Positions 1 through 6,479 of a stretch of DNA of 6,479 nucleotides are shown here, piece by piece. Made by a program: the position numbers and the translations under genes. The stretch is from IMG/VR virus record IMGVR_UViG_3300008222_000006, one strand, 5' to 3'. The DNA is from a virus. Positions within the stretch are counted from its first letter, which is position 1. Every line of letters begins with the position of its first letter. The notes under the pieces were generated by a model. It saw nothing but the letters and a program-made list of their open reading frames with translations, was not told the DNA's origin and did no database searches.

Positions 1-123
1 ACCAGATTCATTATTGACACACTGATTAGTTACGCCGTTCCAATGGGCGCCAGTACCACATTTATTAACACACTGACCCTCAACAGAGTTAGAGTCAGCA
101 GGACAGCCACCGTTATTATCTAA
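1..123. repeat. Terminal direct repeat, copy 1 (identical to 6357..6479)
   Basis: Base-by-base comparison: accagattcattattgacac...ccaccgttattatctaa occurs at both window ends. Confidence 0.95.
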
Positions 124-1634: not shown

Positions 1635-2747
1635 TTAAGCGGCTCTATACCAAGTTGGAATAGAGAGTTCTTGGGTAACTACTTCAGTAGCTTTCTTTAC
1701 AAAAATAGGGCTGATGCTAGAAATATTGCAAGGACGGCAAATATCAATACCAATTTTACGAAGTCTAGCGCGGTGCAATTTAACTTGAGTTTTAGTGGCA
1801 TCGAAGGATTTCCCATGGAGCCATTCAAGAAAGTATATAGAGGTAGTGTGAGCAGCTTTAGTAGAAGTAACATAATTATTTCTAAAAAGAAGTTCTGCGA
1901 TTGTTTCATATTCCATTGAAGTCACCTGCAACTTTTCGTCTAGTGATCTGAATTTTGTATGCTCTTCATCGAAGGCGGCATCTGCAAATAAACCCCAGTA
2001 ACGGGCGTTCATTCGACGTAATAATTCGGATTTAAATTCTTGTTCAAATCTAACTACACCGTTTTCCTGACAGTAAAGAAAGACCTTCTTTAAGTAAGCA
2101 TACTCTAAAGAATTCTCACCGACAGAATTTTTTATTTTCTTCATTGAGTGTAGTTTTAATTCGTGAGCCTTATCATAAACTTTTGAATACATGAGAGAAG
2201 AAACACCACCAGAAGCAGTACGCCAATCACATGAACAGCCGTTTGGGTATAAATTAGGGTTAGAGTTTCGATAAGGGAGAGTAGCTAAACCTTTAATATA
2301 ATCTTTAGAAAAACCGCCAGTAGCTAAATTTGAGGTTACATCAATGCGCTGAAAAATAGCCCCATCAGTCATGGTTACAAACTTGGCTGAACCTTTCTGT
2401 TTTTCGGTAACTTGCCATGTACGAGTGCATTTAGTGAAAGGAGGTAAACCAAGTGAAATAAGGATTTTATTGTAAACAGCGACACAATCATCAAGAGAGG
2501 TTAAGCCGAAAAGGTTATCAAGACGATTAAATTTAGAAGGGTTTCCATCCATCGTGATTCGGTTACCAGAAATGCGGATATTTATAACTGAGCTAAAAGA
2601 ACCTTTATGAGAAAAAGTGGGCTGTGAAATGGTTAATATATCGCCCGTTTCGACATTAATATTCGCATAAGCCCGTTCAGAGACGATAGGGAGCGCGAAG
2701 TCGAAATCTTGATACATCTTAAGCCAATCATAAAAGGGATTGTACAT
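1635..2747 (-). CDS. Rolling-circle replication initiator (pII/RstA-like), 370 aa
   Basis: ATG at 2747 with AGGA 7 nt upstream. It is the first and largest gene of the core operon. From memory, three motifs resemble the RstA/Rep_trans-type initiator families: N-terminal FYDWL, IFQRIDVTSN (R-I-D) and KVYDKAHELK (YDK with a candidate catalytic Tyr). Not verified by search. Confidence 0.8.
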   Translation of the reverse strand: MYNPFYDWLKMYQDFDFALPIVSERAYANINVETGDILTISQPTFSHKGSFSSVINIRISGNRITMDGNPSKFNRLDNLFGLTSLDDCVAVYNKILISLGLPPFTKCTRTWQVTEKQKGSAKFVTMTDGAIFQRIDVTSNLATGGFSKDYIKGLATLPYRNSNPNLYPNGCSCDWRTASGGVSSLMYSKVYDKAHELKLHSMKKIKNSVGENSLEYAYLKKVFLYCQENGVVRFEQEFKSELLRRMNARYWGLFADAAFDEEHTKFRSLDEKLQVTSMEYETIAELLFRNNYVTSTKAAHTTSIYFLEWLHGKSFDATKTQVKLHRARLRKIGIDICRPCNISSISPIFVKKATEVVTQELSIPTWYRAA

Positions 2748-2784: not shown

Positions 2785-2812
2785 GTTATATGTTAGGAAT
2801 ATATACTAACAA
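2785..2812 (-). promoter_or_regulatory. Candidate sigma70 promoter for the rep operon
   Basis: On the minus strand: TTGTTA (plus 2807..2812), a 16-nt spacer, then TATAAC (plus 2785..2790). The -10 element lies about 38 nt upstream of the rep ATG. Confidence 0.45.
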
Positions 2813-2861
2813 TTCTTAGAAAGCAAATACAAAGTATTGCTTTTCTAAGTTCTTAGAAAAG
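2813..2861. promoter_or_regulatory. Operator-like repeats in the rep / ORF54 divergent region
   Basis: A perfect 22-bp palindrome cttttctaag-tt-cttagaaaag spans 2840..2861. A third copy of the half-site, ttcttagaaag (2813..2823), abuts the candidate rep -35. An imperfect inverted repeat gcaaatac-aaa-gtattgc lies between them (2823..2840). Confidence 0.6.
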
Positions 2862-2887
2862 GATTTCCAAGAGAGTGAGAGAAGAAG

Positions 2888-3052
2888 ATGCCAAGCAAAC
2901 ACATAGACAAAGATCAGTGGAAGGAAATCGAAAAAATTTCCGTAAATGAAACAATTACCAAAAAAGAGGTAATTTATCCAAATAATATCCTTAAGCTATT
3001 GATAGCTAAAGGATTAGAAGCATATTCCAAAGAGAAGCCAAGGACGGAGTGA
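2888..3052 (+). CDS. 54-aa plus-strand ORF, candidate small transcriptional regulator (possibly ribbon-helix-helix-like), divergent from rep
   Basis: My translation is MPSKHIDKDQWKEIEKISVNETITKKEVIYPNNILKLLIAKGLEAYSKEKPRTE, from ATG 2888 to TGA 3050..3052. A purine-rich stretch (gagagaagaag) lies directly upstream. It is the only plausible plus-strand gene. It occupies the position that rstR holds relative to rstA in CTXphi. Below the ORF-track length cutoff. Confidence 0.5.
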   Translation: MPSKHIDKDQWKEIEKISVNETITKKEVIYPNNILKLLIAKGLEAYSKEKPRTE

Positions 3053-3063
3053 TCTGGGAAAAA

Positions 3064-3107
3064 GTCGGGATACCGACCTAAAGTTGGGGTGTCACTGGAA
3101 CCCCAAC
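3064..3107. other. Two GC-rich hairpins downstream of ORF54
   Basis: First: gtcgg-gata-ccgac (3064..3077). Second: gttggggt-(9 nt)-accccaac (3083..3107, 8-bp stem), followed on the plus strand by atctttaactt. The second may terminate ORF54 transcription or fold in viral ssDNA. Confidence 0.5.
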
Positions 3108-3142
3108 ATCTTTAACTTCGTCAGCAATAGTATGGCGAGTGG

Positions 3143-3199
3143 CAAAAGATGGACAAAGACAAAGACGGTTAACAAAAAGAGGGTTTGTGTTTTTAAAAA
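3143..3199. repeat. Iteron-like CAAA(A)GA repeats plus an AT palindrome
   Basis: The repeats are caaaaga (3143..3149), caaaga (3154..3159), caaaga (3160..3165) and caaaaaga (3173..3180). The palindrome tttttaaaaa follows at 3190..3199. Confidence 0.5.
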
Positions 3200-3209
3200 G
3201 AATGCAGAC

Positions 3210-3230
3210 TCTGGGGAAGGATTCCCCAGA
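3210..3230. other. 9-bp perfect hairpin, tctggggaa-gga-ttccccaga
   Basis: Arms at 3210..3218 and 3222..3230 with a 3-nt loop, about 45 nt downstream of the HTH gene stop on the minus strand. The T-rich tract (ttcttttt) begins only 9 nt after the stem, so it is not a canonical terminator. Confidence 0.5.
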
Positions 3231-3273
3231 AGGAGTGCGGAGCAGTTAAAAGCGTTAATATGCTGCGCATCAG

Positions 3274-3486
3274 TCAAACCAAATTTTTCTGATCATCATA
3301 GGGCAGAGTGATATTAAATTCAGTATAGGCGATCCAGCGGAGTGCAAGCTCATTAGTGAGCTTAACCTGACAATCAGAAGCTTCTATTTTTTGAATAGTA
3401 TTAAGTGTCAAACCTAGCCTTTCGGCTAGCTCCCTTTGTTTCAATTTAAGTCTAATTCTAGACTCCTTAAAAGTATCGCTATGCAT
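3274..3486 (-). CDS. XRE/Cro-C1-type helix-turn-helix transcriptional regulator, 70 aa
   Basis: Sequence: MHSDTFKESRIRLKLKQRELAERLGLTLNTIQKIEASD.... The segment QRELAERLGLTLNTIQKIE is a textbook HTH_3 pattern. ATG at 3486 with AGGA 9 nt upstream. This ATG overlaps the stop of the upstream ORF (ATGCATAG). The track's 80-aa version starts at a TTG. Confidence 0.85.
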   Translation of the reverse strand: MHSDTFKESRIRLKLKQRELAERLGLTLNTIQKIEASDCQVKLTNELALRWIAYTEFNITLPYDDQKNLV

Positions 3487-3739
3487 GGTCAACAGTCCTA
3501 AAAGCATCCTGATCAATCAGTTCATGAGCAAGATCAGGGAAATCCAAACGTAAAATATTAAAAAGCTCCTTTTGTAGCTGGCAATGAAAAGAGTCATTTT
3601 TTGTAAAAATAGCGTAGCTGACAGAACCATTTCTAATGAAAGTACGTAAAACAATGTGACGTTTTTCCAGAGTGAAAACAAAGTCACCAGTTTCAAAAGT
3701 AATAGCAGTTTCGGAAGTCCAAGCAATCATAAAAGACAT
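3479..3739 (-). CDS. 86-aa acidic protein of unknown function (accessory cassette, gene 2)
   Basis: ATG at 3739 with GGAGA 7 nt upstream. Its start overlaps the upstream stop (TAATG) and its stop overlaps the HTH start. I recognise no family. Confidence 0.65.
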   Translation of the reverse strand: MSFMIAWTSETAITFETGDFVFTLEKRHIVLRTFIRNGSVSYAIFTKNDSFHCQLQKELFNILRLDFPDLAHELIDQDAFRTVDHA

Positions 3740-3930
3740 TAGATAATCTCCATTTCAAGCAAACCAATAGAAGTAATATGACGTAGGGTAATCGGTGAGA
3801 ACTTAGAGTAAAAGAGTTTTCCGGATATTTCTTGGTTGGCTGTGTAATGGCCGTTGGAGTAGTGGCGAATAACCCAAACCTTTGAGCTATTCCACTTATC
3901 TTGAATTCTGGTAGTAGTCATAATATTCAT
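3739..3930 (-). CDS. 63-aa (or 60-aa) basic protein of unknown function (accessory cassette, gene 1)
   Basis: ATG at 3930 lies immediately after AAGGGA. A second in-frame ATG at 3921 has more typical 9-nt SD spacing. It is the first gene after the candidate promoter. I recognise no family. Confidence 0.6.
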   Translation of the reverse strand: MNIMTTTRIQDKWNSSKVWVIRHYSNGHYTANQEISGKLFYSKFSPITLRHITSIGLLEMEII

Positions 3931-3944
3931 TCCCTTTGATTAGT

Positions 3945-4008
3945 TTACATAATTATTATATATAATTTTTATGTAAGAATCAAGGTATTTTGCATAAATA
4001 TTATGTAA
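3945..4008. promoter_or_regulatory. Four TTACATAA-type half-sites arranged as two inverted pairs around the cassette promoter
   Basis: First pair: ttacataa (3945..3952) and ttatgtaa (3969..3976), an inverted pair with a 16-bp spacer that brackets the -10. Second pair: ttgcataa (3990..3997) and ttatgtaa (4001..4008), with a 3-bp spacer, just upstream of the -35. Confidence 0.6.
3955..3983 (-). promoter_or_regulatory. Candidate sigma70 promoter of the accessory cassette
   Basis: On the minus strand: TTGATT (plus 3978..3983), a 17-nt spacer, then a perfect TATAAT (plus 3955..3960). The -10 element lies about 25 nt upstream of the ORF63 ATG. Confidence 0.6.
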
Positions 4009-4044
4009 AAATTTATCCGTTTTCCCCCCTGGTTAATTGAGTGA

Positions 4045-5040
4045 TCAGATTTTTAGTGTGCTTTGTGGTTGATCTGGAATCGTATGATCAAAGATACGAT
4101 CATCAATCATGGAATTACAGATGTTGTCTGGAACAATGAGTTTGGAAGCTTGTTGTGTAAAACAACTGCAAGACGGTTTACCGTTCTTGTTAATGCGAAT
4201 ACAAAGGGTTTTAGGGAAACTAACAGGAGTAGTGAGAGTGTCGTAGATAGGAGCGGTTGAAGGTATCCCAAAAATTCTAGGCTTATAGAGATTAAGATAA
4301 TCTGTTTGATCCAATGGGTAGACAGGAGCAAAACTACTACCTGTAATCTTTGTTGGAGCGTCATTGGAAAGAACAGACCCATCAGCATTATGAAGCTTAC
4401 TGTCAGGTGATCCACCAAGTGAAGTAGCAAAGTATATTGCATATCCAATAACTCCTATTGTGCCCAAAATAACTAGAAGTAGTTTTTTGGGTGGGTTGAA
4501 TTTGTGAGTATCAAGTTCAGTAGATTTGTAAGTACCGAAATACTTTTTATCAATAATTCTGTTAGAGCTAGCAGAAGCTTGTTTAGCGTGGTAATCGGTC
4601 GGATCTATAGTCATCTCACTAAAGATTCTTTGAGTTACCATTTTTGAGCCAAACTTTCTCTCATAGTGATAGTGAGGTGCAGCAAGTCTACGAAGACGAA
4701 CATCAATCAAAGAAGGGTGTTGAGAGATAATAAATAAATCAACACCGTTATGTCGTGAAGTGTTGAGTTTTGTAATGTGTGGAGGAGCTTCTTTTTTAGT
4801 ATCGGGTTTTGCTATTGGGAAAATCTCTTGAGCTTCATCAATAAAGATAATTGCACCAGCAGGTAGCTCATACCATTTTAAAACGTCCTCTTTAGACATC
4901 TCAATCCAGCTATCAAATACAACCTCTTTAATGTTGTAGTAGTAAACCGGACGATCTTTAAATTGTTTGTCTTCTCTCAACATTTTTATAGTGTTAAGAG
5001 TTTTTGAAGCGCCAATAACACCAGTAATTAGATAAATCAT
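4045..5040 (-). CDS. Zot / pI-family phage assembly ATPase, 331 aa
   Basis: The N-terminal P-loop is ITGVIGASKT, a deviant Walker A (GxxGxSKT). As I recall, CTXphi Zot has GAPGSYKT. Walker B is AIIFIDEAQEIFP, comparable to FLFIDECGRIWP in Zot as I recall it. A central TM helix (LLLVILGTIGVIGYAIYFATSL) is followed by a periplasmic C-domain containing Cys. It lies right after the pVI-like gene. Confidence 0.9.
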   Translation of the reverse strand: MIYLITGVIGASKTLNTIKMLREDKQFKDRPVYYYNIKEVVFDSWIEMSKEDVLKWYELPAGAIIFIDEAQEIFPIAKPDTKKEAPPHITKLNTSRHNGVDLFIISQHPSLIDVRLRRLAAPHYHYERKFGSKMVTQRIFSEMTIDPTDYHAKQASASSNRIIDKKYFGTYKSTELDTHKFNPPKKLLLVILGTIGVIGYAIYFATSLGGSPDSKLHNADGSVLSNDAPTKITGSSFAPVYPLDQTDYLNLYKPRIFGIPSTAPIYDTLTTPVSFPKTLCIRINKNGKPSCSCFTQQASKLIVPDNICNSMIDDRIFDHTIPDQPQSTLKI

Positions 5041-5066
5041 AAAAAAGCCCCTGCGGGGTTTTTTTT
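5041..5066 (-). terminator. Terminator-like hairpin abutting the zot start codon and containing its SD
   Basis: The minus-sense RNA reads AAAAAAAA-CCCC-GCA-GGGG-C-UUUUUU-AUG. The stem pairs plus 5048..5051 with 5055..5058. The only SD-like element (AGGGG, 7 nt before the ATG) forms the 3' arm of the stem. The flanking A and U runs could extend the pairing. Confidence 0.55.
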
Positions 5067-5120
5067 ATGCATATTGTGACTTCGCTTACAAACATGCATG
5101 AAAAAAACAAAAAAAATTAA

Positions 5121-5459
5121 TTAAGCGAAAAACTTAAATTTCTTGGGTCGGCCAAAAGCTTTAAGAACTAGAACAGCACCTACAGTTGCAATGATCATTT
5201 TGAAAACAGTATCAAGGCCAGCAAGTTTCAAAACCATCAGCAGATCAGAAGGAAGACCGTTAAATTTTTCCATAATAAGATCGGTGACATAATCAAGAAC
5301 GATTTCTGTACCAACATAAGTAACAGCAACAATGCCTAATAAACGTATGATCCAGCCGATCAGGGGAGGCAGAACAAAAATAACAAAAGCTAAAGTCTTG
5401 CCCCAAGAAGAAACAACACCAGTAACTAAAGCAGAAATTACACCAAGTGGACCGAACAT
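5121..5459 (-). CDS. pVI-like minor coat/membrane protein, 112 aa
   Basis: ATG at 5459 with GGGAG 9 nt upstream. It starts 3 nt after the pIII-like stop. It has several hydrophobic segments and a basic tail (RPKKFKFFA). Its length equals Ff pVI, and it sits between pIII and pI. Confidence 0.75.
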   Translation of the reverse strand: MFGPLGVISALVTGVVSSWGKTLAFVIFVLPPLIGWIIRLLGIVAVTYVGTEIVLDYVTDLIMEKFNGLPSDLLMVLKLAGLDTVFKMIIATVGAVLVLKAFGRPKKFKFFA

Positions 5460-5462
5460 ATT

Positions 5463-6479
5463 TTATAACTCCCGAATTGCGCCATAGAGCATGAAAGAAC
5501 AGAAAATCATTCCAGCGAAAAGTATTAAAGGATTGATAGCTTCAATAGTGGGGCAGACAAAATCATCATAATTAAAGTATTGAGTACCGAAACTAAAAGT
5601 CATAGAGCGAGGAGCAGGACAGCCACCCGCCTCACCTTCAATGCTAAAAATAGCGGACAAACCAAGTTCATCAACGAGGTTAAATTCTTCGGTACCAATA
5701 GCATTAGATAAAACACCATTTTCGTCAGTTTCACCCATAGCTTTGAATTCATCTAAAGCAGGAGAAGCCATTAACTGTTCAAGAGATTGAGCAGAACCTT
5801 CACAGTATTTTGTATGTTGATTAGCAAGAGCAGCACATTCAAAAACACCACCCTCACAAGTAAACGGAGTGCCAGAGTCACAAGAATTAATATCACTTAT
5901 AGAAGCTTCAGCAGGATCAGGAATGCGGCATTTTAATTCCCAAGTTTGATGTAGTAGAGCACATTGAATAGCATCACCAGAACAAGCAATGGGAGAATCG
6001 CAGGTACCAGTTCCAGTAACAGCGGAATCAGGTTCTGGAGGTTCTTCAGTAGTGTCAGTTTGAGTAGCACTAACACCAGTTACAGCGCCAGCAGCATCTT
6101 TTTGAGTAGTGGTGACAACTGTTGTATTAGAAGTAGAACCATCAATATTATTAGTGATAGTTGTATTTGTAGTGGTTTCGGTAGTGGTTCCGTCAGGATT
6201 GGTAGTAATAACAGTATTAGAAGTTGATTGAGGGTCAGTATCAATAACACAAGCGCCAGCAACTAGAATTTTATTAGGAGGGCAGGAGGTAGGAGCACAA
6301 GCACCAGTAACATTAAGAGCATATCCATTAGGACATGAAGATTGGTCGCCCTCACCACCAGATTCATTATTGACACACTGATTAGTTACGCCGTTCCAAT
6401 GGGCGCCAGTACCACATTTATTAACACACTGACCCTCAACAGAGTTAGAGTCAGCAGGACAGCCACCGTTATTATCTAA
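5463..6479 (-). CDS. pIII-like adsorption protein, C-terminal part; the full gene is complement(join(5463..6356,1..570)), 487 aa
   Basis: I translated the minus strand codon by codon from 5771 up to 6479 and found no stop. The track's 102-aa ORF (5463..5771) is therefore only the tail of this gene. This part contains a Thr/Asn-rich linker (about 6000..6240), a second Cys-rich domain and a C-terminal anchor (INPLILFAGMIFCSFMLYGAIREL). Confidence 0.85.
   Translation of the reverse strand, partial: LDNNGGCPADSNSVEGQCVNKCGTGAHWNGVTNQCVNNESGGEGDQSSCPNGYALNVTGACAPTSCPPNKILVAGACVIDTDPQSTSNTVITTNPDGTTTETTTNTTITNNIDGSTSNTTVVTTTQKDAAGAVTGVSATQTDTTEEPPEPDSAVTGTGTCDSPIACSGDAIQCALLHQTWELKCRIPDPAEASISDINSCDSGTPFTCEGGVFECAALANQHTKYCEGSAQSLEQLMASPALDEFKAMGETDENGVLSNAIGTEEFNLVDELGLSAIFSIEGEAGGCPAPRSMTFSFGTQYFNYDDFVCPTIEAINPLILFAGMIFCSFMLYGAIREL
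6357..6479. repeat. Terminal direct repeat, copy 2 (identical to 1..123)
   Basis: Same 123 nt as the window start. It lies inside an open reading frame, so it looks like a circularisation or concatemer overlap rather than a biological LTR. Confidence 0.95.

What the first reader, a model, noticed from the sequence alone, without database searches (positions are those of the whole stretch)
3274..3930. Uncharacterised three-gene, translationally coupled cassette in the post-zot cargo slot
A compact operon sits directly downstream of the zot-like gene, the slot where CTXphi carries ctxAB. It encodes a 63-aa basic protein, an 86-aa acidic protein and a 70-aa XRE-type HTH. The junctions overlap (TAATG at 3739; ATGCATAG at 3479..3486). 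The operon has its own near-consensus promoter and operator repeats. I recognise no family for the first two proteins. Small coupled genes ending in an XRE regulator fit several roles. One is a toxin/antitoxin or tripartite addiction module. Others are a superinfection-exclusion or anti-defence module, or the phage's lysogeny and immunity switch. None of the three is needed for the canonical inovirus life cycle, so this is the most likely place for new biology in the window.
Basis: partly seen in the sequence, partly recalled or inferred. Interest (0 to 1): 0.7.

Follow-up and report, generated by a model that had tools for sequence, protein, structure and literature searches.

The report
Self-regulated three-gene cargo operon, inovirus
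A small filamentous phage from a metagenome carries a real three-gene operon, seen in none of the relatives examined, that ends in a Cro-like DNA-binding protein likely to switch off its own promoter; what its other two small proteins do is unknown.

Summary
On the minus strand, 3930-3274, three overlapping ORFs fill the gap between the zot-like gene and a structured intergenic region. They encode 63 (or 60), 86 and 70 aa proteins, each with a Shine-Dalgarno-like site. No shuffle of 5000 reproduced this ORF packing. A TTGATT-17-TATAAT promoter lies between TTTRCATAA inverted repeats, and that motif occurs nowhere else in the genome.

The third protein is a Cro/434-type XRE HTH. It probably represses only its own operon (inferred).

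ORF86 is a true orphan in 1.84 billion representative proteins. ORF63 is not an orphan. It belongs to an uncatalogued family of at least 99 clusters, found in the early operons of tailed phages and prophages, mostly from gut Firmicutes. Its predicted fold, a beta-sheet plus a C-terminal helix, has no characterised match.

None of the three genes occurs in 125 loci of Rep relatives. At least four relatives carry a ~85-aa coiled-coil gene in this slot. The conserved regulator next to rep is a different gene, a divergent 54-aa ORF.

The trio is therefore lineage-specific, self-contained cargo. Membership tests for toxin-antitoxin families, RstR, HicA and DUF1488 all failed. The payload function remains unresolved, and interest is moderate.

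The parts
3989..4009 (.). Operator-like 21-bp near-perfect palindrome, TTTGCATAA-ATA-TTATGTAAA, just upstream of the -35
   Evidence: (I1). The motif is confined to this region: 3 hits against 0.36 expected, and 0 of 200 shuffles reached 3.
3978..3983 (-). -35 hexamer TTGATT of the cassette promoter
   Evidence: The promoter matches 10 of 12 positions with a 17-nt spacer. Such a match occurs in 8.7% of shuffled spacers.
3955..3960 (-). -10 hexamer TATAAT of the cassette promoter
3944..3977 (.). Inverted half-sites TTACATAA / TTATGTAA flanking and overlapping the -10; degenerate 19-bp operator-like sites at 3945-3963 and 3958-3976
   Evidence: (I4)
3739..3930 (-). ORF63: 63 aa from ATG 3930, more likely 60 aa from ATG 3921. 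Basic (pI 9.6). Member of an uncatalogued family of tailed-phage early proteins. Predicted beta-sheet plus C-terminal helix.
3479..3739 (-). ORF86: 86 aa, acidic (pI 5.4), an orphan. Its start overlaps the ORF63 stop (TAATG).
3274..3486 (-). HTH70: a 70-aa XRE/Cro-type helix-turn-helix protein. Its ATG overlaps the ORF86 stop (ATGCATAG). Presumed autorepressor.
3053..3273 (-). Structured intergenic region downstream of the cassette. Hairpins lie at 3213-3231 and 3084-3108. A terminator-like hairpin GTCGGtatcCCGAC plus T5 lies at 3077-3059 on the minus strand.
   Evidence: z = -4.9; 0 of 200 shuffles folded as well; sequence
2888..3052 (+). Context, not part of the cassette: a 54-aa ORF (phrog_5219) convergent with the trio and divergent from rep. 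This is the regulator position that is conserved in relatives.
4045..5040 (-). Context: the zot-like assembly ATPase (gI-type) immediately upstream of the cassette
1635..2747 (-). Context: the rolling-circle replication protein (G2P N- and C-terminal domains)

Best explanation
The trio is a self-contained, self-regulated accessory ('moron'-type) operon sitting in the variable slot between zot and the intergenic region of a 6.36-kb circular inovirus.

Proposed mechanism:
- A sigma-70-type promoter at 3983-3955 drives one mRNA for ORF63, ORF86 and HTH70.
- Overlapping stop and start codons couple their translation.
- Transcription ends in the hairpin-rich intergenic region, at about 3077-3059.
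- HTH70, a 70-aa Cro/434-type XRE protein, binds as a dimer to the TTTRCATAA inverted repeats. These sit just upstream of the -35 and flank the -10, so binding shuts off the operon's own promoter (negative feedback).
- That motif occurs nowhere else in the genome. The regulator is therefore predicted to control only this cassette, not phage replication.

The payload is ORF63 plus ORF86. ORF63 is a small protein of a family otherwise found in the early operons of tailed phages. ORF86 is a phage-specific orphan. My best guess is that they act on the host or on competing phages, for example in host takeover or superinfection interference, and are kept at a low set level by the feedback loop.

Shown: the ORFs, the coupling, the HTH domain, the confinement of the motif, the lineage specificity and the family distribution of ORF63.
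Inferred: operator binding, autorepression, the site of termination and the payload's role.
For: - ORF packing is far beyond chance: 0 of 5000 shuffles. RBS-like sites and overlaps are present. Independent gene calls give 63/86/70 aa on four other contigs.
- HTH_3 scores above Pfam's cut-off. The closest solved structures are 434 repressor and 434 Cro, of the same size, at E about 0.02.
- The promoter and palindromes lie in the 114-nt spacer. The motif is found only there: 3 hits against 0.36 expected.
- The downstream region is significantly structured, z = -4.9.
- None of the three genes was found in 125 Rep-relative loci or in phiAFP1, silverpheasant213 or D_HF32_91.
- At least four relatives carry an unrelated ~85-aa coiled-coil gene in the slot, and it is absent from this genome.
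- The regulator position beside rep is filled by the conserved 54-aa ORF.
- ORF63 homologues lie in early-gene arrays of tailed phages and prophages.
- Inoviruses are known to carry diverse accessory regulator, TA and exclusion modules (PMC6813254).
Against: - There is no experimental or expression data.
- All five contigs carrying the cassette are 100% identical over it, so purifying selection could not be measured.
- The promoter match alone is weak, arising in 8.7% of shuffles.
- Spacing between half-sites differs: 3 nt in the palindrome against 16 nt across the -10. The operator architecture is therefore uncertain.
- The payload function is a guess. ORF86 has no homologue and only a low-confidence model, pLDDT 49.5. 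The ORF63 fold matches nothing characterised.
- Read-through from the upstream structural operon was not excluded.
Confidence: 0.5

Rival explanations
1. It is a tripartite toxin-antitoxin (addiction) module. Basic ORF63 is a growth-inhibiting protein and acidic ORF86 is its neutralising partner. HTH70 is a separate transcriptional autoregulator, by the logic of omega-epsilon-zeta or paaR-paaA-parE but with the regulator encoded last. The module would stabilise the episomal phage in the host population.
For: - The operon is compact and translationally coupled, with a basic/acidic pair of pI 9.6 and 5.4.
- It has an autoregulation-type promoter.
- The best NCBIfam hits for HTH70 are antitoxin families: Y4mF/HipB-like at 1.6e-6, MqsA and HigA.
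- Inoviruses carry many TA pairs with shuffled, unrelated partners (PMC6813254).
- ORF63 relatives sit among tailed-phage early genes, a class that often inhibits host growth (general knowledge).
- The gene just downstream of ORF63 homologues is acidic in the five contexts checked, which is weak evidence.
Against: - No toxin or antitoxin model in Pfam, NCBIfam or PADLOC matches ORF63 or ORF86.
- The HTH70 antitoxin hits are far below their cut-offs: 28 against 71.65 bits, 21.5 against 61.8, and 17.2 against 47.7.
- ORF63 homologues occur without any ORF86-like or HTH70-like neighbour, and their downstream genes are unrelated to each other.
- The confident ORF63 model matches no RelE, HicA, MazF or other toxin fold.
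- ORF63 was not found in plasmids.
Confidence: 0.2
2. It is the phage's immunity or chronic-infection switch, or a swapped-in heteroimmune version of it. HTH70 would act as a Cro- or RstR-like master regulator. ORF63, whose relatives sit beside HTH regulators, would act as a co-regulator or anti-repressor.
For: - The module lies in the zot-to-rep regulatory region, where CTXphi and Pf-type phages keep their repressors (general knowledge).
- HTH70 resembles 434 Cro and 434 repressor and weakly resembles RstR.
- In prophages resembling phage nd4 (gut Firmicutes), ORF63 homologues directly follow an HTH_38 gene next to cI/cro-like HTH_3 genes. They are fused in frame to HTH_38 in 3 clusters and to a PucR-type HTH in 1 cluster.
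- Relatives carry a different small gene in the same slot. This could be a non-homologous regulator swap.
Against: - The operator motif is absent from the rep/ORF54 intergenic region and from the rest of the genome. That region has its own, different inverted repeats, CTTAGAAAAG-type.
- The conserved divergent regulator next to rep is ORF54, not HTH70.
- The RstR model scores 19.7 bits against an 80-bit cut-off.
- The fusions come from single short contigs or from loss of a stop codon, and may be assembly or gene-calling artefacts.
Confidence: 0.2
3. The ORFs are not functional genes: either chance open frames or decaying remnants in a non-essential spacer.
For: ORF86 has no homologue in 1.84 billion representative proteins. 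There is no sequence variation with which to test selection.
Against: - No shuffle of 5000 reproduces the packing.
- All three ORFs are on the same strand as the other phage genes, have RBS-like sites and precise overlaps, and were called independently by JGI.
- ORF63 keeps every invariant residue of its family.
- HTH70 passes a curated Pfam threshold.
- A 6.4-kb ssDNA phage has little room for junk (general knowledge).
Confidence: 0.03

Closest known systems
Cro / 434-repressor type XRE proteins (Pfam HTH_3, PF01381)
   Same: HTH70 passes the HTH_3 threshold. It has the size of 434 Cro, 70 against 71 aa, and aligns from residue 3-5 with 434 Cro and 434 repressor. Its gene lies downstream of a promoter embedded in inverted repeats.
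   Different: Similarity to any specific member is low, E about 0.02. It is the last gene of a three-gene operon, not part of a divergent cI/cro pair. Its putative operators occur at one promoter only.
RstR of CTXphi and similar inovirus repressors (NCBIfam NF041951)
   Same: Both are small XRE-type regulators of a filamentous phage, located in the region between zot and rep.
   Different: The score is 19.7 bits against an 80-bit cut-off. HTH70 is co-directional with rep and lies about 530 nt from it. The divergent position next to rep is taken by the unrelated 54-aa ORF.
Toxin-first type II TA modules with XRE antitoxins (HigBA, HicAB, MqsRA) and three-component TA systems (omega-epsilon-zeta, PaaR-PaaA-ParE)
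   Same: Small overlapping genes; an XRE protein at the 3' end; an autoregulation-type promoter; a basic/acidic pair. TA cargo is known in inoviruses (PMC6813254).
   Different: No component reaches any family threshold. The ORF63 model has no N-terminal helix and gave no HicA, RelE or other characterised match in Foldseek. ORF63 relatives lack a conserved partner. In the known three-component systems the regulator is encoded first (general knowledge).
Unnamed ORF63 family of tailed-phage and prophage early proteins (for example WRQ08020.1 of Phage nd4 and WDQ45430.1 of Enterocloster phage PMBT24)
   Same: Identity is 38-62% over the roughly 45-aa core KxW-x2-K-DGHY-x2-NQ-x3-G. ORF63 scores E = 4e-29 against the family profile.
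   Different: Every other member whose genomic context I examined lies in a double-stranded DNA tailed phage or prophage, mostly of gut Firmicutes, often after an HTH_38 gene. This copy is in a single-stranded DNA inovirus whose Rep relatives infect Gammaproteobacteria. The family has no Pfam or PHROG model and no known function.
ctxAB-type cargo downstream of zot in CTXphi
   Same: The position is the same: cargo between the zot-like gene and the intergenic/regulatory region, with its own promoter.
   Different: There is no sequence or domain similarity, no signal peptides, and the cassette carries its own regulator.

Membership tests
XRE / HTH_3 (PF01381) | Match to the HTH_3 profile above Pfam's gathering score | tested here: met
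   29 bits against a cut-off of 23, E = 1.1e-6. Supported by phrog_7950 'transcriptional repressor' at 5e-7.
XRE / HTH_3 (PF01381) | Sequence-specific binding to inverted-repeat operators | not testable with these tools
   Candidate operators exist at 3944-4009. Binding is inferred.
Type II TA antitoxins with XRE fold (HipB/Y4mF, MqsA, HigA) | Score above the NCBIfam curated cut-off | tested here: not met
   TIGR03070 scored 28 against 71.65, TIGR03830 scored 21.5 against 61.8, and TIGR02607 scored 17.2 against 47.7.
Type II TA toxins (RelE/HigB, HicA, MqsR, MazF, ParE and others) | Recognisable toxin domain or fold in a partner gene | tested here: not met
   ORF63 and ORF86 gave no hit at E <= 0.001 in Pfam, NCBIfam or PADLOC. 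The only matches at laxer limits were weak and unrelated to toxins. The ORF63 model (pLDDT 86) has no PDB match below E = 0.39. The ORF86 model is too poor to test.
Type II TA systems in general | Toxin and antitoxin co-occur as a conserved pair | tested here: not met
   ORF63 homologues in 5 contexts have no ORF86-like or HTH70-like neighbour, and their downstream genes are unrelated. ORF86 has no homologues at all.
Type II TA systems in general | Toxicity of one component, rescued by another | not testable with these tools
   This needs expression experiments.
RstR-family inovirus repressor (NF041951) | Profile score above cut-off, and a divergent position next to the replication gene | tested here: not met
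   19.7 bits against 80. The divergent position is occupied by ORF54.
HicA toxin (lead for ORF63, from the invariant GH motif) | HicA profile match, or a dsRBD-like alpha-beta-beta-beta-alpha fold | tested here: not met
   No Pfam hit. The model is four to five strands plus one C-terminal helix with no N-terminal helix. No HicA appeared among the 50 Foldseek matches listed, the best at E = 0.39.
DUF1488 (PF07369; lead for ORF86 from PDB 2gpi) | Match to the family profile | tested here: not met
   The pairwise hit to 2gpi is full-length but has E = 0.52. In the same Pfam run, the 2gpi sequence scored 4.8e-20 and ORF86 scored nothing. 2gpi was not among the fold matches, though that model is unreliable.
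Conserved inovirus core or accessory genes (morphogenesis, replication) | Homologues present in related inoviruses | tested here: not met
   No hit for ORF63, ORF86 or HTH70 in 46 + 79 Rep-relative loci at E <= 0.05, or in three complete relatives and one IMG/VR locus, L011, which is only a distant Zot relative at 24% identity. IMG/VR gave no ORF86 relative.
Unnamed ORF63 family (tailed-phage early protein) | Significant profile match and retention of the invariant residues | tested here: met
   The window protein scores 4.3e-29 against the family profile. D11, K17, H28, N32 and G37 are invariant, and W19, G27 and Y29 are kept.
XerCD-dependent integrative inoviruses (dif-like attP) | A 28-bp dif-like site | tested here: not met
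Shuffles give 16-20. The TTTRCATAA repeats do not have dif geometry.

The most novel reading that the evidence does not exclude
ORF63 defines a new, widespread family of small phage proteins that work together with helix-turn-helix regulators. The support is genomic: ORF63 homologues sit next to HTH_38 genes, are occasionally fused to HTH domains, and here share an operon with an XRE protein. The family has also crossed from double-stranded DNA tailed phages of Firmicutes into a single-stranded DNA inovirus of a gammaproteobacterium. In the inovirus it has been paired with a de novo or fast-evolving partner (ORF86) and a dedicated repressor. Together these would form a new three-component module: either a previously unknown toxin/neutraliser/regulator addiction system or a new anti-repressor-type switch.
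Probability: 0.15. Interest if true: 0.6.

Novelty: new variant of a known kind. Interest (0 to 1): 0.4.

Why it matters
Filamentous phages change host behaviour mainly through the few cargo genes they carry beyond the core, such as ctxAB, TA modules and exclusion proteins. This cassette is a clean, complete example of such cargo, and it comes with its own feedback regulator.

One of its genes links an uncatalogued family of tailed-phage early proteins to an inovirus. The family has at least 99 clusters, and its largest cluster holds about 800 member sequences. If the function of ORF63 were solved in this minimal 6.4-kb system, it would annotate that whole family.

As it stands nothing here overturns current understanding. 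It is a well-delimited candidate, not a discovery.

Tried and rejected
1. HicA/HicB idea. ORF63's invariant G-H and C-terminal helix suggested a HicA toxin, with ORF86 + HTH70 as a split HicB. Rejected: no profile hit, the wrong topology, and no Foldseek match.
2. ORF86 as DUF1488. A full-length but non-significant hit to 2gpi was not confirmed by the Pfam model, and DUF1488 is essentially absent from the phage and plasmid collections.
3. ORF86's 'strong' hits to 1238-aa and 1565-aa proteins (2.4e-32 and 2.3e-5). These are repeat proteins matched over 17 and 5 stretches. I judge the scores to be inflated by the repeats, not evidence of homology.
4. Operator repeats as dif-like XerCD attP sites. 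Rejected: the best dif match is no better than in shuffles.
5. Selection test (dN/dS). Impossible, because all contigs are 100% identical over the cassette.
6. Megablast of the whole window against phage records: no match.
7. A single-protein Rep scan of metagenomes found nothing. The alignment-based scan worked.
8. Rfam: nothing relevant.
9. Foldseek on the ORF86 model is uninformative because pLDDT is 49.5.
10. Plasmid searches for ORF63 and HTH70: no match.
Full report
WHAT THE WINDOW IS. The window is a complete filamentous-phage (inovirus) genome. Its two ends share a 123-nt direct repeat, so the circle is 6356 nt. Every gene but one lies on the minus strand. The order is replication protein (2747-1635, G2P N- and C-terminal domains), a 102-aa ORF, a 78-aa ORF, the major coat protein, a large pIII-like gene that runs across the window ends, a g6-like gene (5459-5121), and the zot-like assembly ATPase (5040-4045). 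Four other JGI metagenome contigs carry the same phage and are 100% identical over the zot-to-rep stretch, apart from one mismatch in zot on L004. The nearest described relatives are Alteromonas phage phiAFP1 and Escherichia phage If1, at about 50% Rep identity. Rep relatives in genomes are all Gammaproteobacteria, including Cellvibrio, Pseudomonas, Haemophilus and Pectobacterium. The whole-genome megablast against phage records found nothing.

On the minus strand, ORF63 (3930-3739), ORF86 (3739-3479) and the HTH gene (3486-3274) fill the space between zot and a non-coding region. The ORF63 stop and ORF86 start share one base (TAATG). The HTH start lies 8 nt inside ORF86 (ATGCATAG). ORF86 and the HTH gene each have a GGAG or AGGA 9 nt upstream of their ATG. 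For ORF63 the GGGA is 9 nt from the second ATG (3921), so a 60-aa product is more likely than 63 aa, and one JGI gene call used that start. The 70-aa start of the HTH is also the one that aligns residue-for-residue with 434 Cro and 434 repressor. Calculated pI values are 9.6, 5.4 and 7.9. None of 5000 shuffles of the region gave comparable one-strand ORF coverage. GC content of the trio, 35-38%, is like the rest of the genome.

PROMOTER, OPERATORS, TERMINATION. The 114-nt spacer after zot contains TTGATT-17-TATAAT. That match alone is modest, since 8.7% of shuffled spacers reach 10/12. It is, however, embedded in a set of TTTRCATAA repeats. One is a 21-bp near-perfect palindrome at 3989-4009, just upstream of the -35. 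Others are inverted half-sites on both sides of the -10. The motif occurs three times, all here, against 0.36 expected, and 0 of 200 shuffles reached three. It is absent from the rep/ORF54 intergenic region, which has its own different inverted repeats. I checked whether the repeats could be dif-like XerCD sites. Downstream of the HTH gene, 3280-3050 folds far better than shuffles, z = -4.9. It includes a terminator-like hairpin plus T5 on the minus strand at 3077-3059.

THE THREE PROTEINS. The third protein passes Pfam HTH_3, 29 against 23 bits. Its best PHROG is a transcriptional repressor family. Its closest solved relatives are 434 repressor and 434 Cro, at E about 0.02 and of the same length. 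All hits to specific subfamilies are far below their curated cut-offs: the HipB/Y4mF, MqsA and HigA antitoxins, and RstR.

ORF86 is an orphan.
- The word-indexed search of 5.8 billion clusters and the exhaustive HMMER search of 1.84 billion representatives returned itself plus two long repeat proteins.
- Those two were matched in 17 and 5 short stretches. I regard them as repeat-inflated artefacts.
- A full-length but non-significant hit to PDB 2gpi (DUF1488, E = 0.52) was not confirmed. The DUF1488 Pfam model recognises 2gpi at 4.8e-20 and does not recognise ORF86.
- With no alignment available, the AlphaFold model is unreliable at pLDDT 49.5, and its fold search is uninformative.

ORF63 is not an orphan.
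- tblastn found 36-48% identical ORFs in Phage nd4, Enterocloster phages and a faecal phage contig.
- A profile built from these found 99 clusters. The largest has 797 member sequences.
- None is named by its source, apart from two labelled only 'hypothetical protein'. The family has no Pfam or PHROG model and was not found in plasmids.
- The conserved core is about 45 aa, with invariant D11, K17, H28, N32 and G37.
- With this alignment AlphaFold gives a confident model, pLDDT 86: four to five beta-strands followed by one helix.
- Foldseek finds nothing below E = 0.39 in the PDB. In BFVD it finds only uncharacterised phage proteins, the best at 6e-3.

CONTEXT OF ORF63 RELATIVES. They sit in arrays of small early genes of tailed phages. 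In prophages of gut Firmicutes that resemble phage nd4, they are the gene directly after a small HTH_38 protein. Nearby are cI/cro-like HTH_3 genes and, downstream, Gam/ERF/SSB recombination genes. Three clusters are in-frame HTH_38 fusions and one is fused to a PucR-type HTH. These come from single contigs and may be artefacts. None of these loci encodes anything like ORF86 or HTH70. The genes downstream of the ORF63 homologue are unrelated to each other, although all are acidic.

IS THE TRIO CONSERVED IN RELATED INOVIRUSES? No. I collected 46 loci from genomes and 79 from metagenomes that encode Rep relatives at 37-74% identity. I then searched all six-frame ORFs. There was no hit for ORF63, ORF86 or HTH70 at E <= 0.05. 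By contrast, the 54-aa plus-strand ORF (2888-3052, phrog_5219) has homologues in 19 of these loci, each lying just upstream of rep and divergent from it. It also has homologues in phage silverpheasant213, where it is unannotated, and in Inovirus D_HF32_91. phiAFP1 has an analogous 'putative regulator' at the same position. So the conserved regulator position is taken by ORF54, not by the XRE protein. In the post-zot slot, phiAFP1, silverpheasant213, L029 and L068 carry a ~85-aa coiled-coil protein. These are weakly related to each other, and the window has no counterpart. The closest Rep relative, L066 at 74%, has yet another arrangement. The slot is therefore variable, and the trio is specific to this phage lineage.

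MOST LIKELY MECHANISM. I commit to a self-contained, negatively autoregulated cargo operon. The promoter at 3983-3955 makes one mRNA. Coupled translation gives the three proteins. The Cro-like HTH70 dimer binds the TTTRCATAA repeats and shuts off its own promoter. Transcription ends in the structured intergenic region. Because the motif is confined to this promoter, the regulator is predicted not to control phage replication. Given the company ORF63 relatives keep, the payload most plausibly acts on the host or on competing phages. This last step is inference only.

RIVALS. A three-component toxin-antitoxin module (0.2) fits the operon's shape, and inoviruses are known to carry TA modules (PMC6813254). 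It fails every membership test I could run. An immunity or chronic-infection switch role (0.2) fits the position and the recurrent association of ORF63 relatives with HTH genes. It is weakened by the confinement of the operators and by ORF54 holding the conserved regulator position. Non-functional ORFs (0.03) are very unlikely.

NOVELTY AND SCORE. Cargo and regulator modules in the variable region of inoviruses are a known kind. This one has an unusual composition: an uncatalogued tailed-phage early protein, an orphan, and a dedicated Cro-like regulator. No function has been demonstrated. I rate it a new variant of a known kind, with interest 0.4. The most novel reading not excluded is a new HTH-associated small-protein family forming a new three-component addiction or switch module. 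I give that a probability of about 0.15 and an interest of about 0.6 if true.

Noticed in passing
window 1-123 and 6357-6479: The window has a 123-nt terminal direct repeat, so it is a complete circular genome of 6356 nt. The pIII-like gene (487 aa on sister contigs) runs across the window ends and is therefore missing from the ORF list.
   Followed up: partly
window 2888-3052 (+): A 54-aa ORF (phrog_5219, 4.6e-9) lies divergent from rep. Homologues sit at the same divergent position in 19 Rep-relative loci and in two described inoviruses; in MZ474491 (376-522) it is unannotated. It looks ribbon-helix-helix-like by eye. It is probably the phage's conserved rep-promoter regulator.
   Followed up: partly
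window 2812-2862: Nested inverted repeats lie in the rep/ORF54 divergent promoter region: CTTAGAAAGCAAATAC / GTATTGCTTTTCTAAG and CTTTTCTAAG / CTTAGAAAAG. They differ from the cassette's repeats. They are candidate ORF54 operators or origin hairpins.
   Followed up: no
window 3053-3273: This intergenic region has significantly stable single-strand structure, z = -4.9. It contains a perfect 8-bp-stem hairpin at 3213-3231 and a stem-loop at 3084-3108. It may hold the packaging signal or minus-strand origin, as well as convergent terminators.
   Followed up: partly
window 5041-5066 (-): An A8-CCCCGCAGGGG-CT6 hairpin lies immediately before the zot ATG, between g6 and zot. It looks like a terminator or attenuator. 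It probably also explains the weak Rfam Atu_C8 hit at 5028-5130.
   Followed up: no
L014:130-384, L012:6556-6825, L029:~4170-4428, L068:1747-2010: Related inoviruses carry a ~85-aa protein with a coiled-coil C-terminal half in the post-zot slot. The copies are weakly related to each other, and this phage has none. Function unknown.
   Followed up: partly
L015-L019 (gut Firmicutes prophages), P0008, P0009, P0011, P0089: ORF63-family genes directly follow a small HTH_38 gene. In a few clusters they are fused in frame to HTH_38 or to a PucR-type HTH. This may be a functional link or an assembly artefact.
   Followed up: partly
P0101 and P0102 (hits to ORF86, window 3479-3739): The exhaustive search gave E = 2.4e-32 for a 1238-aa tandem-repeat protein, matched in 17 stretches to residues about 9-50 of ORF86. 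This is an example of repeat-inflated scores, not homology.
   Followed up: yes
L066:459-737: The closest Rep relative (74% identity) has neither the ORF54 homologue nor the trio. Instead it has a 92-aa protein, ribbon-helix-helix-like by eye, co-directional with rep. Even the regulator next to rep is therefore exchangeable in this group.
   Followed up: no
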